Part shown: positions 11,470 through 14,124 of the stretch, piece after piece
How the letters are laid out: every line of letters starts with the position of its first letter
Position numbering within the stretch: the stretch's first letter is position 1
Origin: a virus
Taxonomy: Duplodnaviria; Caudoviricetes
IMG/VR virus record: IMGVR_UViG_3300042691_038938
Length of the DNA stretch: 64,000 nt
Reading direction: 5' to 3' (one strand)
Made by a program: the position numbers and the translations under genes
The notes under the pieces: model-generated
The model's input: the letters and a program-made list of their open reading frames with translations, nothing else
Databases searched by the model: none
What the model was told of the DNA's origin: nothing

Positions 11470-12540
11470 TTAATTTATGACTTTTTCATGTAAGCGGTCT
11501 ACATAATTAACATAGTTATCCACGAAGTGAACGTACGCTTGCTTCAAACCTGTGTCATCACACTCTTTCAAGTATTTATAGATCTCAATAAAATCATCTA
11601 AGTTATCAAAAGAAAAAGTCTTACATAAGAACTCAAACTTGTAGGATACTGGGATCATCCCAAAGATCATGGCTTCAAAGACTCTTGCCGGAATGAATTG
11701 AGCAGTATCATACTTGTCTTTAGTCACGTTTATCATTAAGGTTGAGATCTCGAGCATCTCCCATATGCCTGCTCTATCGTTTCTTGGAACGTGTGCTGCA
11801 GTTTTCTCATGGCCTGAATAATCTGATGCTTTACAGATCAAAGCTAATGTCGATCTTGCGTCGTTATTCGATTCAATCCAATCTATCACTTCGCCAAGAA
11901 TAGCATTCTTTGAGTTTCCTGCCTTGTACTTGGAAGTATCGATATTTCCATAAAAGACGCTCACATGACTAGAATAGTCCTTAGTCGCTAAGTTTATCTC
12001 AACACACTCCTTTAAGAACCTGTTAGATATTCCTGGAAAGTCTATCGATGGAACAGATATTGTGACTTTATGTGAAAATTTTTCAAAGAAGGAATCAGGT
12101 AGGGAGAGATCAGTGTCCAAGATGACGATCTGTTCTTTAGAGTATCCGCTATCAATTGCAGTCTGAATGATTATTTCAAAGTCTCTAGCGTCCTTCCATT
12201 TTTTAGCTAGAGTGGAAAGGTTTCTAAATCTAGCCTTTAAGAAAAGCTTAGAATATTTGATTGACTTAATATCCTCAACAACAGTTTCTATTCGATGAAT
12301 CGGAGAATCAAAGAGGTCAGCTCGATATCCAGCAAAAAGCCTACCTAATGGAGTGTCTGGGAAACCACTTAGTTTAGCCGACTTAATTACATCGTCTGGA
12401 TAATAACTGTAAAAATCGAATTTTTCACAATTAAAAGTCTCTTTTATTGAATCGACCAGCCCTATCTGATAGAGGCTGTGTCCGGGAGAATCAATGTCAT
12501 GTAGATCAAGTAGACCAAAATACGCGTATAATGCTTTCAT
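11470..12540 (-). CDS. GT-B glycosyltransferase, like T4 DNA beta-glucosyltransferase
   Basis: By-eye match to T4 BGT: ILDTDLSLP ~ LFTDIRLP; VFYGN ~ VIYGG; KDKYDTAQFIPARVFEAM ~ DKNYNDNFITLRVWETM; FDNLDDFIE ~ VNNRAELID. Length 356 aa. Confidence 0.65.
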   Translation of the reverse strand: MKALYAYFGLLDLHDIDSPGHSLYQIGLVDSIKETFNCEKFDFYSYYPDDVIKSAKLSGFPDTPLGRLFAGYRADLFDSPIHRIETVVEDIKSIKYSKLFLKARFRNLSTLAKKWKDARDFEIIIQTAIDSGYSKEQIVILDTDLSLPDSFFEKFSHKVTISVPSIDFPGISNRFLKECVEINLATKDYSSHVSVFYGNIDTSKYKAGNSKNAILGEVIDWIESNNDARSTLALICKASDYSGHEKTAAHVPRNDRAGIWEMLEISTLMINVTKDKYDTAQFIPARVFEAMIFGMIPVSYKFEFLCKTFSFDNLDDFIEIYKYLKECDDTGLKQAYVHFVDNYVNYVDRLHEKVIN

Positions 12541-12543
12541 ATC

Positions 12544-12969
12544 TTATTTTACTGGATTTTCAGCTTGGGTTCTGGCCCAAGCCAAGTATTTTGCTAGGAC
12601 TCCATCAGTTGGATTCACCTCAAGGTTGCCCTTCATAAAGATCTCCCATGAGTCCTGCGCATACTTGCCTATTCCATATAGTTCTTTAGGTTCTTGCCAA
12701 TTGAGTGTGAGCCAGTCACTTGAGAAGCGTTTGATGGTGTTTGTACGACGGTTCCTAAAGCCCAATGGCGCCAGGAGCTCAGCCATCTCATTAAGATCGG
12801 CTCTTTCCGCTTCTGACGGATCCGGATATCTCTTAAAGAATTCGTCTCTTACCCTGTCTACTTGCTTTCTGGAGGTACAGTTTAACATGATACAACAAAC
12901 GAGCACCCGCCATGGGTGCTCGTTGTAGATCTCTTGAAGAAGCAGGTAGGGGCTTACTTGCTTAATCAT
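12544..12969 (-). CDS. MBD4-like HhH DNA glycosylase (T/U:G mismatch)
   Basis: PWRVLVCCIMLNCTS, YP..., LLAPLG, ELYGIGKYAQDSW (catalytic Asp kept) and V.PTDGVL.KY..W are colinear with the MBD4 catalytic domain. Confidence 0.85.
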   Translation of the reverse strand: MIKQVSPYLLLQEIYNEHPWRVLVCCIMLNCTSRKQVDRVRDEFFKRYPDPSEAERADLNEMAELLAPLGFRNRRTNTIKRFSSDWLTLNWQEPKELYGIGKYAQDSWEIFMKGNLEVNPTDGVLAKYLAWARTQAENPVK

Positions 12970-13762
12970 TTTTGATCGCCACTACGTGAGTGATAAAATT
13001 CTTTCCATATTCCACTGCATCAATCTTTCTCACAACGTCAAAGTTGTTCTCAAGTATGGAAATTATCTCTTGAAACTTTTGTACGCGATTTGCTTTAAGA
13101 GGCTTGTACATGAAGTGATATTCAACGATAAAGACTCTGATATTTGACCAGTCAGTGACTGCCTTGATCAGTTCATACTCAGCACCCTCAACGTCCATCT
13201 TGATGGCAGTCGCTCCATGATTAGCGATAGCATCGTTAATGTTTATTGCAGGAAGGTGCATCACTTCCCTTCCTCTGATCGGAAGTATAGAGTGTTTTCC
13301 AGAATCAGTTGAGATGAAGAAGTCAATAGTCTCTTCATTTCCTGGGACTATTGCCTTTTGGACCACTTCACACTCTGCTCCAACGTTGTTGATCGCGATG
13401 TTCTCGATCGCAAAGGAAGCATTATGTGGCAACGCTTCATATGCTAAGATCTTTTTTATCCTAGGAAATTGCTTTGCCATTCTTACTGCAAAGAGTCCGA
13501 TATGGCCTCCAACGTCCAACCAAGTATCCTCTTGATTGAAGACTGCATTCACGTCCATTTCAGGACCGTATGCAGCTGAGGTTAGCGGCTTGATGTATTC
13601 CCCACTCTTTGGGCTCTTTGAGACATTCGTACTCACATTGTACTGTATCTCATTTAGCCCTTTTCTAATGTAGAACTGAAAGTCCGCGTATCTCGTCTTC
13701 CAATCAATGAGTTCTATTTGATTGAATTTTTGAGCTGTCTTAAAATCGATTCGAGTATCCAT
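12962..13762 (-). CDS. FkbM-family SAM-dependent methyltransferase
   Basis: WLDVGGHIGLF, AYEALPHN, IKMDVEGAEYELI. Confidence 0.88.
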   Translation of the reverse strand: MDTRIDFKTAQKFNQIELIDWKTRYADFQFYIRKGLNEIQYNVSTNVSKSPKSGEYIKPLTSAAYGPEMDVNAVFNQEDTWLDVGGHIGLFAVRMAKQFPRIKKILAYEALPHNASFAIENIAINNVGAECEVVQKAIVPGNEETIDFFISTDSGKHSILPIRGREVMHLPAININDAIANHGATAIKMDVEGAEYELIKAVTDWSNIRVFIVEYHFMYKPLKANRVQKFQEIISILENNFDVVRKIDAVEYGKNFITHVVAIKND

Positions 13763-13774
13763 TAACTAACTTTT

Positions 13775-14059
13775 CTATTTTTGTACTTCGTTAGTCGTTT
13801 TAGTTTCGAGTCTTCCTTTTTTTACCCTCTCAACTCTAAGAGTGCTTCCAGTAAGAACCGTTGCAATTTTGACGTTTTCTCGCTTTGAGATGTAACTTAA
13901 TGCCGCACGAATGTTAGTCGCTTCTTGCTTACCTGAGATTCCAGAAATCTCAAAGTAGTTGCCTAATTGCATCTTAGTTAAACGGTCTTTTAGGATTCGG
14001 TGACGAGAGTCTGTCCTTTTTGCCTTTTGAATCGGGCCGATCACAATTGAATTTTTCAT
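13775..14059 (-). CDS. small basic protein, possibly DNA-binding
   Basis: 94 aa, K/R-rich; first gene of the methyltransferase-glycosylase-glycosyltransferase operon. Confidence 0.6.
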   Translation of the reverse strand: MKNSIVIGPIQKAKRTDSRHRILKDRLTKMQLGNYFEISGISGKQEATNIRAALSYISKRENVKIATVLTGSTLRVERVKKGRLETKTTNEVQK

Positions 14060-14071
14060 AGAAAATAATTT

Positions 14072-14082
14072 ATTTTTGATTA
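14072..14082 (-). promoter_or_regulatory. TATAAT-type -10 element (early or middle promoter candidate)
   Basis: Minus strand TAGTATAATA in the AT-rich gap upstream of 14059; no late TAAATA motif here. Confidence 0.4.
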
Positions 14083-14124
14083 TTATACTACGAAAAAACC
14101 TAAATTAAAAATTTTACAATGATT

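What the first reader, a model, noticed from the sequence alone, without database searches (positions are those of the whole stretch)
12544..12969. Stand-alone glycosylase closely matching eukaryotic MBD4
Seen: residue-level colinearity with the MBD4 catalytic domain as I recall it (PWxxL..I.LN.TS, LL.PLG, EL.GIGKY..DS, V.P.D..L.KY..W). It lacks the methyl-binding domain and the Fe-S cluster of MutY/Nth. Inferred: the phage genome carries 5-modified cytosine and needs G:T or G:hmU repair; phages may also be a reservoir for this family.
Basis: partly seen in the sequence, partly recalled or inferred. Interest (0 to 1): 0.6.

Follow-up and report, generated by a model that had tools for sequence, protein, structure and literature searches.

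The report
Phage stand-alone MBD4-type mismatch glycosylase
A large uncultured freshwater phage encodes a 141-residue copy of the catalytic domain of the animal repair enzyme MBD4, which most likely removes the thymine-like bases left when the phage's chemically modified cytosines decay; the same gene recurs in phages with three different kinds of modified cytosine.

Summary
ORF 12544-12969 (-) encodes a 141-aa protein that matches the MBD4 glycosylase domain (phmmer E 7e-28, against 0.01 for Nth/MIG). Its AlphaFold model superposes on MBD4 structures at TM about 0.9. It keeps the residues shown by mutagenesis to be essential (Gln12, Tyr103, Asp122) and has no MBD and no Fe-S cysteines. It is under strong purifying selection (dN/dS about 0.1) and is translationally coupled to an FkbM methyltransferase and a GT-B glycosyltransferase in 21/21 related viral contigs.

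The inference of a modified-cytosine genome is supported comparatively. The only cultured phages with this gene are Xp12-like 5mC phages, where it lies 0.8 kb from the dCMP-methylase operon, plus cyanophage S-TIM54. Both groups carry a dCMP-specific thymidylate-synthase homologue. A 207-kb relative of this phage has a T4 gp42-type 5hm-dCMP synthase, and other glycosylase-bearing jumbo contigs carry 5-hydroxy-dCMP synthases or C5-methyltransferases.

Activity is untested, and this window's own genome could not be searched. The "Arg finger" is Cys here, but that position varies across the family. This scan has found the same gene on other DNA. I found no paper describing it. Verdict: new, uncharacterised viral member of a known enzyme family.

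The parts
12544..12969 (-). 141-aa stand-alone MBD4-type HhH-GPD DNA glycosylase (the finding). Key residues: Gln12, Leu29-Asn30-Cys31-Thr32-Ser33-Arg34 DNA-insertion loop, Leu69-Gly70-Phe71 wedge loop, Tyr103, catalytic Asp122.
   Evidence: ORF. PDB phmmer E 6.6e-28 to MBD4. AF2 model with Foldseek TM about 0.9 to MBD4. Residue map. dN/dS 0.06-0.13.
12962..13762 (-). 266-aa FkbM-family methyltransferase. Its stop overlaps the glycosylase start by 8 nt (translational coupling). Context gene, target unknown.
   Evidence: Pfam PF05050, 43 bits; PHROG 8156 methyltransferase. Sequence at the junction. Conserved next to the glycosylase in 21/21 related loci.
11470..12540 (-). 356-aa GT-B-fold glycosyltransferase starting 3 nt after the glycosylase stop. 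Candidate DNA (hydroxymethylcytosine) sugar transferase. Context gene.
   Evidence: No Pfam, PHROG or PDB sequence hit. AF2 model pLDDT 84. Foldseek hits are all GT-B glycosyltransferases, including phage HY126 GT (ranks 7 and 9) and T4 beta-glucosyltransferase (ranks 14-15, TM 0.45-0.47). Conserved in 21/21 loci.
13775..14059 (-). 94-aa basic protein of unknown function, first gene of the tight four-gene unit.
   Evidence: ORF. No family hit. tblastn match at E <= 1e-5 in 14 of 21 related loci.
14082..14087 (-). TATAAT hexamer 23-28 nt upstream of the 94-aa gene's ATG. A possible -10 element of an early or middle (not T4-late TATAAATA) promoter. Sequence only.
   Evidence: Read. The consensus scan found no full -35/-10 pair here, so this is weak.

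Best explanation
The gene encodes a monofunctional DNA glycosylase of the MBD4 family. It would flip a 5-substituted uracil (T, U, 5-hydroxymethyl-U, possibly its sugar-bearing form) out of a mismatch with guanine and cut the N-glycosidic bond with Asp122. Gln12 and Tyr103 would read the uracil-type Watson-Crick edge, and the Leu29-Arg34 loop and Phe71 would hold the gap and the orphan G. In this phage, cytosine is very probably replaced by 5-hydroxymethylcytosine that a neighbouring glycosyltransferase decorates. Hydrolytic deamination of the modified cytosine (in the virion or during infection) therefore gives a G-mispaired hmU-type base. Host uracil glycosylase would not be expected to remove such a base (inference, not tested), so the phage brings its own enzyme, probably made before late genes, and the abasic site is finished by a phage Nei-like lyase and/or host BER enzymes. 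What is shown: the family, the fold, the catalytic residues, purifying selection, the operon, and the co-occurrence with cytosine-C5 modification genes in other viruses. What is inferred: the activity, the substrate, the timing, and the modified state of this particular genome.
For: Family and chemistry. PDB phmmer gives E 6.6e-28 to MBD4 against 0.01 for Nth/MIG, and Foldseek gives TM 0.88-0.93. In a 169-row tree every MBD4-family row separates from E. coli Nth and MutY (SH-aLRT 92). Gln12, Tyr103 and Asp122 correspond to Q449, Y540 and D560, whose mutation abolishes or nearly abolishes MBD4 activity (PMC3479182, PMC3458566). Y103 and D122 are invariant in all 120 close cluster representatives, and Gln12 in 108 of the 109 that cover the position. 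Tyr occupies the position of the Nth catalytic Lys, so the enzyme should be monofunctional. The Gln/Tyr hydrogen-bond pattern fits uracil-type and not cytosine-type bases. MBD4's pocket leaves the C5 substituent of 5hmU solvent-exposed. The mouse MBD4 domain alone removes deamination products from fully 5mC (XP12) and 5hmC (T4gt) phage DNA in all sequence contexts (bioRxiv 10.1101/2023.03.02.530819).

Selection. dN/dS is 0.06-0.13, and the glycosylase is the best-conserved gene of its neighbourhood in most of the 21 related loci (65-86% identity, against 51-78% for the GT).

Link to modified cytosine. Among 50,697 cultured-phage records only Xp12-like phages, S-TIM54 and a partial hit in APSV1 have the gene. 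In Xp12 and Donnerlittchen it sits 0.8 kb from the operon of nucleotide hydrolase, 'thymidylate synthase', dCMP deaminase and DHFR. Those synthase homologues, and S-TIM54's, carry the dCMP-specific Asp at the ThyA N177 position. Relative G001 (81% identical glycosylase, same synteny) has a gp42-type enzyme (PDB 1B49 E 4e-20; N177D plus an acidic L143 position). 14 of 33 glycosylase-bearing viral records, most of them fragments, have an N177D homologue, against 2 of 18 random records. Among records at least 80% complete the counts are 5/7 against 1/10 (one-sided Fisher p about 0.02). A sixth near-complete record has two C5-methyltransferases. The synthase gene lies within 10 kb of the glycosylase in 8 records, about 6 lineages. 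Repair neighbours (UvdE, ATP ligase, Fpg/Nei) occur in other lineages, and Nei-like genes occur in G001, G016 and G022.
Against: No enzyme assay exists for any viral member. This window's own genome could not be searched (no genome held; exact-match scan empty; contig look-up closed). The MBD4 'Arg finger' (R468) is Cys31, the pocket Gly471 is Arg34 and Lys562 is Val124, so affinity or specificity may differ from MBD4. These positions vary across the whole family, including eukaryote-type members. T4, RB69 and most hmC/hoC phages lack the gene, so it is not required for such genomes. One viral genome rated complete (G023, 284 kb) has the glycosylase but no thymidylate-synthase homologue or C5-methyltransferase that I could detect. 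The control sample is small, its records are smaller on average, and lineages are not independent. No AP endonuclease of the Xth type was found in five relatives.
Confidence: 0.68

Rival explanations
1. It is a general-purpose G:U/G:T mismatch glycosylase that large phages carry as ordinary genome maintenance. It has no special tie to modified cytosine, and the co-occurrence reflects the fact that big phages carry many nucleotide-metabolism genes.
For: Neighbours in 31 more distant viral lineages are heterogeneous, and some are plain repair genes (UvdE, ligase, Fpg). G023 has the gene without a detectable modification enzyme. A cellular copy sits among housekeeping genes in a Candidatus Actinomarina single-cell genome. 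The control set is small and size-mismatched.
Against: In cultured phages the gene is confined to lineages with a dCMP-specific synthase homologue, against a background of at most 2.7% of records. It sits within 10 kb of that gene in 8 records, about 6 lineages, and inside the 5mC nucleotide operon in Xp12-like phages. 0 of 18 random large viral records carry it.
Confidence: 0.15
2. It is an integral step of the DNA hypermodification pathway encoded by the four-gene unit, not a repair enzyme. For example, it might remove unmodified or wrongly modified bases so that they are replaced, as quality control of the sugar or methyl decoration.
For: It is tightly coupled translationally to the FkbM methyltransferase and sits 3 nt from the GT-B glycosyltransferase, in 21/21 related loci.
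Against: That synteny is confined to one phage family in which the whole 12-kb neighbourhood is collinear. In all other lineages the glycosylase has different neighbours. The conserved Gln/Tyr edge-reading residues fit uracil-type and not cytosine-type bases.
Confidence: 0.08
3. It is a weapon or counter-defence. It might help destroy host or rival-phage DNA (for example after cytosine deamination), or undo damage inflicted by a host DNA deaminase defence.
For: Phages with modified cytosine are known to degrade cytosine-containing host DNA (established for T4). Glycosylases are used in phage-host conflict on the host side (PMC11078745, listed).
Against: No DNA deaminase or nuclease partner was seen next to it in any lineage. 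MBD4-type enzymes turn over slowly and act only at G mismatches, which makes them poor degradative tools. There is no positive evidence for this reading.
Confidence: 0.06
4. It is a catalytically altered DNA-binding protein, for example a mismatch or modified-base reader, that has lost efficient base excision because the Arg finger is Cys.
For: R468 is described as locking the flipped base for catalysis. Here it is Cys31, in 116 of 120 close relatives.
Against: The catalytic Asp, Gln and Tyr are invariant under strong purifying selection. The finger position is K, R, Q, L or C across the family, Gln in E. coli Nth and MutY, and Arg34 three residues on is invariant in the clade and could supply the phosphate contacts.
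Confidence: 0.03

Closest known systems
Glycosylase domain of mammalian MBD4/MED1 (PDB 1NGN, 3IHO, 4DK9, 4E9E-H, 4EVV, 4EW0, 4EW4, 6VJW)
   Same: About 40% identity over 127-135 residues with one single-residue gap. Same all-helical HhH-GPD fold (TM about 0.9, rmsd 1.1-1.9 A). Same Gln, Tyr and Asp catalytic set, same Leu-Asn-x-Thr insertion loop and Pro-Leu-Gly wedge loop, Tyr in place of the lyase Lys, no Fe-S cluster.
   Different: No N-terminal methyl-CpG-binding domain or linker. Arg468 is Cys31, Gly471 is Arg34, Leu508 is Phe71, His561-Lys562 are Gly123-Val124. Encoded by a phage, inside a methyltransferase-glycosyltransferase unit. The likely lesion context is every modified C, not CpG.
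Uncharacterised homologues in Xp12-like 5-methylcytosine phages (Xp12 QNN97216.1 'hypothetical protein', AXL1 'ENDO3c domain-containing protein', Donnerlittchen 'endonuclease III') and cyanophage S-TIM54
   Same: Stand-alone viral MBD4-type domains (33-38% identity by tblastn) in genomes with a dCMP-specific thymidylate-synthase homologue.
   Different: Different viral families (siphoviruses of about 60 kb, a cyanomyovirus). In Xp12-like phages the gene lies in the nucleotide-synthesis operon and not beside a glycosyltransferase. Pocket residues differ (Leu31, Trp34, Lys124). None has been assayed, as far as the held literature shows.
MIG (Mig.MthI, PDB 1KEA), endonuclease III (Nth) and MutY
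   Same: Same HhH-GPD superfamily. MIG also removes T or U opposite G.
   Different: Only marginal sequence similarity (E 0.01-0.5) and TM 0.61-0.69. They are about 210-350 residues with a C-terminal 4Fe-4S cluster, which is absent here. Nth has a catalytic Lys where this protein has Tyr103. They lie on long separate branches in the tree.
Plant MBD4-like (MBD4L) glycosylases, which lack an MBD
   Same: They show that the MBD4 catalytic domain works without a methyl-binding domain (from my own knowledge of the Arabidopsis MBD4L literature, not checked here). Long-N-terminus members without an MBD are frequent among database relatives.
   Different: Eukaryotic nuclear proteins with long N-terminal extensions. 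The phage protein is the bare domain.
T4-type hydroxymethylcytosine system (gp42 dCMP hydroxymethylase, glucosyltransferases)
   Same: The relative G001 has a gp42-type enzyme, and the window has a GT-B transferase that shares its fold class with T4 BGT.
   Different: T4 and its cultured relatives have no MBD4-type glycosylase. The FkbM methyltransferase has no T4 counterpart.

Membership tests
MBD4-type glycosylase domain (HhH-GPD superfamily) | Best and full-length sequence match is to MBD4 catalytic domains rather than to other HhH-GPD families | tested here: met
   E 6.6e-28 over residues 6-132, against 0.012 or worse for Nth, MIG and MutY. Groups with MBD4-family rows, apart from Nth and MutY, in the tree.
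MBD4-type glycosylase domain (HhH-GPD superfamily) | MBD4 fold | tested here: met
   AF2 pLDDT 93.7. The top 16 Foldseek hits are all MBD4, TM 0.88-0.93, rmsd 1.1-1.9 A.
MBD4-type glycosylase domain (HhH-GPD superfamily) | Catalytic Asp (human D560, mouse D534) | tested here: met
   D122 in the NPTD motif aligns to it. 120/120 in close relatives, and in nearly all rows of the family alignment (3 short rows differ or are gapped).
MBD4-type glycosylase domain (HhH-GPD superfamily) | Base-recognition Gln (Q449) and Tyr (Y540), with Tyr in place of the bifunctional-glycosylase Lys | tested here: met
   Gln12 and Tyr103 are present. E. coli Nth has Lys in the Tyr column.
MBD4-type glycosylase domain (HhH-GPD superfamily) | Arg finger (R468) filling the gap left by the flipped base | tested here: not met
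   Cys31 (116/120 in the clade). The column is K, R, Q, L or C across the family, including N-terminally extended eukaryote-type members, so it is not family-defining.
MBD4-type glycosylase domain (HhH-GPD superfamily) | Excision of T, U or 5hmU opposite G | not testable with these tools
   Needs a biochemical assay.
Full-length animal MBD4 protein | N-terminal methyl-CpG-binding domain (PF01429) | tested here: not met
   141 aa, and Pfam finds only HhH-GPD. Animal-type relatives P0227 and P0190 do have the MBD. The phage protein is therefore a member of the catalytic-domain family, not an MBD4 orthologue in architecture.
Endonuclease III / MutY / MIG | C-terminal Cys-x6-Cys-x2-Cys-x5-Cys 4Fe-4S cluster loop | tested here: not met
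   Only three Cys (25, 26, 31), and the protein ends 19 residues after the catalytic Asp (translation).
Endonuclease III | Catalytic Lys in the HhH hairpin (AP-lyase activity) | tested here: not met
   Tyr103 occupies that column.
Phage genome with C5-modified cytosine made at the nucleotide level | Thymidylate-synthase homologue with Asp at the ThyA N177 position (dCMP substrate) | tested here: inconclusive
Met in the syntenic relative G001 (RSND...GLPTD, acidic L143 position, best PDB match T4 gp42). This window's own genome was out of reach.

The most novel reading that the evidence does not exclude
Viral MBD4-type glycosylases may be a dedicated repair arm of genomes with C5-substituted cytosine, tuned to the substituent. 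It is Val, Ala, Ile, Glu or Gln in the hydroxymethyl- and hydroxy-cytosine types. Position 34 is Arg, Asn or Trp by group. On this reading the window's clade excises sugar-bearing 5-hydroxymethyluracil opposite G, a substrate for which no repair glycosylase is known. The eukaryotic MBD4 catalytic domain would then descend from this mainly viral pool of stand-alone domains; the tree is compatible with that but does not establish it.
Probability: 0.22. Interest if true: 0.7.

Novelty: new member of a known kind. Interest (0 to 1): 0.5.

Why it matters
If the reading is right, phages that rewrite their cytosines also pay for it. Every modified C that deaminates becomes a base that the host's uracil repair would not be expected to remove, and some phages solve this with the same catalytic domain animals use to protect methylated CpGs. 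Three things follow. First, it gives a sequence marker that helps flag modified-cytosine genomes in metagenomes. Second, it offers a pool of small, soluble glycosylases that may accept 5hmU, 5hoU or glycosylated derivatives, which would be useful for damage-aware sequencing of modified DNA, as mouse MBD4 already is. Third, it provides concrete material for asking where the eukaryotic MBD4 catalytic domain came from. It is not a new kind of enzyme.

Tried and rejected
- **Own genome:** The hmC pathway of this very phage is therefore untested here.
- **Nearby DNA:** megablast of 6 kb against cultured phages gave no match.
- **PHROGs:** no family for the glycosylase.
- **CpG/TpG depletion:** CpG o/e 0.80 with TpG 1.00 in the window, and about 1.0 in the Xp12, S-TIM54 and Donnerlittchen loci. 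This is not diagnostic for fully substituted genomes.
- **Genome-contig scans:** the 25-sequence alignment was too diverse for a scan of prokaryote genome contigs. A narrower one used a single peptide pattern, so the count of 8 prokaryotic loci is a lower bound.
- **TET/JBP search:** it rang in no control genome, so its negative result means nothing.
- **Glycosyltransferase:** PDB sequence search found nothing. Only the fold shows it is GT-B, and it is not specifically closest to T4 BGT.
- **AP endonuclease:** no Xth-type enzyme in five relatives.
- **Promoter scan:** no more hits than shuffled sequence gives.
- **Rejected idea:** that Cys31 disqualifies the protein from the family. The column is variable family-wide.
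- **Literature:** five of the eight searches asked about phage MBD4-type glycosylases and found no paper on them; follow-up reading of the papers they turned up found none either. The held library is incomplete.
Full report
**The object.** The minus strand of the window carries an intact 141-codon ORF at 12544-12969. It is the third gene of a tight four-gene unit:
- a 94-aa protein (13775-14059);
- a 266-aa FkbM-family methyltransferase (12962-13762; Pfam PF05050, 43 bits), whose stop overlaps the glycosylase ATG by 8 nt;
- the glycosylase;
- 3 nt later, a 356-aa protein (11470-12540) with no sequence-family hit. Its AlphaFold model (pLDDT 84) matches only GT-B glycosyltransferases, including a phage HY126 transferase and T4 beta-glucosyltransferase.

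Upstream of the first gene there is a TATAAT hexamer but no T4-late TATAAATA box. The consensus scan is no better than chance here, so expression timing is only a guess. Earlier notes of this scan describe the genome as an uncultured freshwater T4-like jumbo phage. No whole genome is held for it.

**Is it an MBD4-type glycosylase?** Yes.
- Sequence: phmmer against all PDB sequences returns 15 MBD4 catalytic-domain constructs first (E 6.6e-28 to 1.6e-25, residues 6-132 aligned with one single-residue gap). Endonuclease III and MIG follow at E about 0.01 and MutY at about 0.5.
- Fold: an AlphaFold2 model built on 25 homologues has pLDDT 93.7. It superposes on 16 MBD4 structures at TM 0.88-0.93 and rmsd 1.1-1.9 A. 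The best non-MBD4 hit (MIG, 1KEA) has TM 0.63.
- Tree: in a maximum-likelihood tree of 169 domains, all MBD4-family rows are separated from E. coli Nth and MutY by long branches (SH-aLRT 92). The rows were the window, 19 close relatives, 144 of the 150 representatives at 50% identity (those with at least 115 matched residues), three cultured-phage homologues, and E. coli Nth and MutY. The window falls in a clade of short stand-alone proteins.

**Residue-level test.** I used the two 2012 structure papers (PMC3479182, PMC3458566) to map function onto the alignment.

| Human MBD4 residue | Role | In the window protein |
|---|---|---|
| Q449 | reads N3/O2 of the flipped uracil-type base; Q449A is dead | Gln12 |
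| Y540 | Y-to-F nearly dead; sits where bifunctional glycosylases have the lyase Lys | Tyr103 (E. coli Nth has Lys in this column) |
| D560 | catalytic; D-to-N is dead | Asp122, in the NPTD motif |
| R468 | 'Arg finger' | Cys31 |
| G471 | pocket | Arg34 |
| L508 | wedge | Phe71 |
| H561-K562 | pocket | Gly123-Val124 |

- The catalytic Asp is in NPTD and not in GIGKY..D. The D534N crystal construct aligns its Asn to Asp122.
- Tyr103 and Asp122 are invariant in all 120 cluster representatives of the close family. Gln12 is present in 108 of the 109 that cover it.
- The four differences are fixed in the clade (116-120 of 120).
- The finger column is K, R, Q, L or C throughout the family, including members with long eukaryote-type N termini. 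It is Gln in Nth and MutY. I therefore read it as a variable plug and not as a family-defining residue.
- The invariant Arg34 three residues on may take over the phosphate contacts. This is inference.
- The protein has three cysteines, all N-terminal, and ends 19 residues after Asp122. It has no Fe-S loop and no room for an MBD.

**Is it a working gene?** Pairwise dN/dS against five relatives is 0.06-0.13. In most of the 21 IMG/VR contigs of the same phage family the glycosylase is the best-conserved gene of the neighbourhood. It shows 65-86% identity, against 51-78% for the glycosyltransferase and 28-55% for the next large gene.

**Distribution.**
- The word-indexed protein search found 660 close relatives of 77-247 aa in metagenomes. 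[quoted passage not shown]
- The exhaustive representative search found 2,158 clusters at E <= 1e-3. They are a mixture of short stand-alone proteins and long proteins with the domain at the C terminus. Two of ten long ones tested carry an MBD, which is the animal MBD4 architecture.
- Almost the same peptide pattern found 234 confirmed relatives in IMG/VR, but only 8 in one genome for each of 185,579 prokaryotic species. All 8 are MAGs or single-cell assemblies.
- Of the three prokaryotic loci whose neighbours I examined, one (Candidatus Actinomarina) has plainly cellular neighbours (a CbiM transporter, an EamA transporter, a hydrolase). Another looks phage-like, and the third gave only weak hits.
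- The stand-alone form is therefore mainly viral in the collections searched, with rare cellular copies.
- In the tree the eukaryote-type rows mostly form one clade nested among short forms. Support is modest and the root rests on very distant outgroups, so the direction of transfer is open.

**Link to modified cytosine.** A tblastn of 50,697 cultured-phage records finds the gene only in these groups:
- Xp12-like phages of Xanthomonas, Stenotrophomonas and Janthinobacterium. Xp12 is the classic phage with all cytosine replaced by 5-methylcytosine.
- Cyanophage S-TIM54.
- A 60%-coverage hit in an Aeropyrum virus.

In Xp12 and Donnerlittchen the gene lies immediately upstream of a nucleotide hydrolase, a 'thymidylate synthase', dCMP deaminase and DHFR.

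- Asp at ThyA N177 means a dCMP substrate.
- An acidic residue at L143 means a non-methyl product.
- Asn at D169 means a 5-hydroxy-dCMP synthase.

Results:
- Xp12 and Donnerlittchen have N177D with Asn at the L143 position. S-TIM54 has N177D with Cys there.
- The 207-kb relative G001 has N177D plus Asp at L143, and its best PDB match is T4 gp42 (E 4e-20). It also has a normal ThyA. Its glycosylase is 81% identical to the window's and its synteny is the same.
- Five further jumbo contigs are of the same 5hm-dCMP-synthase type, and two more have N177D but their L143 position could not be read.
- Six contigs carry D169N + N177D + L143E enzymes that match PDB entries 9IQC and 9IQU at E 2.5e-76. 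These entries probably come from phage HY126 (their accession series matches the HY126 glycosyltransferase entries). I read the enzymes as 5-hydroxycytosine-type synthases.
- The synthase gene lies 0.8-9.3 kb from the glycosylase in 8 records, about 6 lineages. In G001 it is 94 kb away, which matches the roughly 90 kb implied by an earlier, untested note on this window's own genome.

Of seven glycosylase-bearing records rated at least 80% complete:
- five have an N177D homologue;
- one has two C5-cytosine methyltransferases;
- one (G023, 284 kb) has nothing I could detect.

As a background sample I took 18 IMG/VR records of at least 42 kb that were hit by an arbitrary 14-mer. Two have an N177D homologue and none has the glycosylase.
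- Overall the counts are 14/33 against 2/18 (one-sided Fisher p = 0.02).
- Among records at least 80% complete they are 5/7 against 1/10 (p = 0.018).
- Among cultured phages, at most 2.7% of records match the gp42-type query at E <= 1e-8.

The association is real but not strict, and the control is small, on average smaller in genome size, and not phylogenetically corrected. T4, RB69 and most known hmC/hoC phages lack the gene.

**How it most likely works.** MBD4's active site accepts any uracil-type base mispaired with G. Its hydrogen-bond pattern (Gln, Tyr, one backbone amide) fits uracil-type and not cytosine-type bases. The C5 substituent of 5hmU points into an open, solvent-filled cleft. 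The isolated mouse domain removes deamination products from heat-damaged Xp12 (G:T) and T4gt (G:5hmU) DNA in every sequence context. Deamination of 5mC, 5hmC and 5hoC gives T, 5hmU and 5hoU, all 5-substituted uracils opposite G.

I therefore read the phage enzyme as a monofunctional mismatch glycosylase that repairs deaminated modified cytosine in the phage's own DNA. The genes before and after it probably decorate that same base. The abasic site would be processed by the phage's Nei-like enzyme (found in G001, G016 and G022) or by host enzymes. No Xth-type endonuclease was found in five relatives.

In other lineages the neighbours are heterogeneous: sugar-nucleotide epimerases, topoisomerase II, NUDIX, UvdE, ligase and Fpg. 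The glycosylase is therefore an autonomous module and not an obligate part of the hypermodification machinery.

- It is Lys or Arg only in the 5mC-type cases: Xp12, Donnerlittchen, the contig with C5-methyltransferases, and animal MBD4.
- It is Val, Ala, Ile, Glu or Gln in all hydroxymethyl- and hydroxy-cytosine types.
- Position 34 is Arg, Asn or Trp by group.

This may reflect tuning to the size of the C5 substituent, or it may only reflect shared ancestry.

**Novelty.** Five literature searches on phage MBD4-type glycosylases, and reading of the papers they turned up, found no paper describing or assaying one. GenBank calls the cultured-phage copies 'hypothetical protein', 'endonuclease III' or 'ENDO3c domain-containing protein', while JGI's pipeline already labels many as MBD4. 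This scan has flagged the same gene on several other phage contigs and reached a similar reading. I had found the Xp12 link independently, before reading those notes. The finding is a new, uncharacterised viral member of a known enzyme family.

Noticed in passing
L134:1162-1869 (G015), L135, L141, L144 (IMG/VR jumbo contigs G011, G013, G015/G016, G022/G024): These thymidylate-synthase homologues carry the D169N + N177D + L143E signature and match PDB 9IQC/9IQU at E 2.5e-76. By the diagnostics of PMC13326640 they are 5-hydroxy-dCMP synthases, so these environmental jumbo phages probably carry (glycosylated) 5-hydroxycytosine. In four of the six records the gene lies 4-7 kb from the MBD4-type glycosylase.
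   Followed up: partly
L099 (IMG/VR record G023, 284 kb, rated 100% complete): This record carries an MBD4-type glycosylase with the same residues, at the 20 active-site and pocket positions compared, as that of G018, which has a dCMP-specific synthase 9 kb away. Yet no thymidylate-synthase homologue or C5-methyltransferase could be found in it. It is either a counter-example to the modification link or a sign of an unrecognised modification route.
   Followed up: partly
L032:3989-4378 (Candidatus Actinomarina single-cell assembly, contig of 93.6 kb): A 129-aa stand-alone MBD4-type gene sits among ordinary cellular genes (CbiM cobalt transporter, EamA transporter, alpha/beta hydrolase). At least one free-living marine bacterium therefore seems to carry the bare domain.
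   Followed up: partly
L268 (IMG/VR record G035, 554 kb, rated complete): A random-control huge phage has a thymidylate synthase that scores like a true ThyA (290 bits) but has Asp at the N177 position (RSVDTCLGLPYD). It may be a dCMP methylase. It has no MBD4-type glycosylase.
   Followed up: no
L039 (cyanophage S-TIM54, OP053362.1 145421-146233) and L269: S-TIM54 and an IMG/VR relative have a thymidylate-synthase homologue with N177D and Cys at the L143 position (RSNDMATGVPLD). This hints that this cultured cyanophage may have C5-modified cytosine. Its record annotates the glycosylase as a hypothetical protein.
   Followed up: no
window 12898-12924 (-): A perfect 11-bp inverted repeat with a 5-nt loop lies inside the glycosylase coding region (codons for NEHPWRVLV). 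The terminator scan flagged it but no T-run follows. It is probably incidental.
   Followed up: no
window 11470-12540 (-): This 356-aa protein has no Pfam, PHROG or PDB sequence match, yet it models confidently as a GT-B glycosyltransferase. Its N-terminal motif (IDSPGHSLYQ-GL) is invariant across relatives.
   Followed up: partly
G001:C1:66470-66655 (IMG/VR 207-kb relative): A 286-aa Fpg/Nei-like ORF (H2TH, 34 bits, just under the cut-off) lies about 4.4 kb from the gp42-type synthase.
   Followed up: partly
H17, LR756500.1 (uncultured phage, 462 kb): The closest database relative of G001's gp42-type synthase (50.7% identity over 99% of the protein) is in a 462-kb uncultured huge phage.
   Followed up: no
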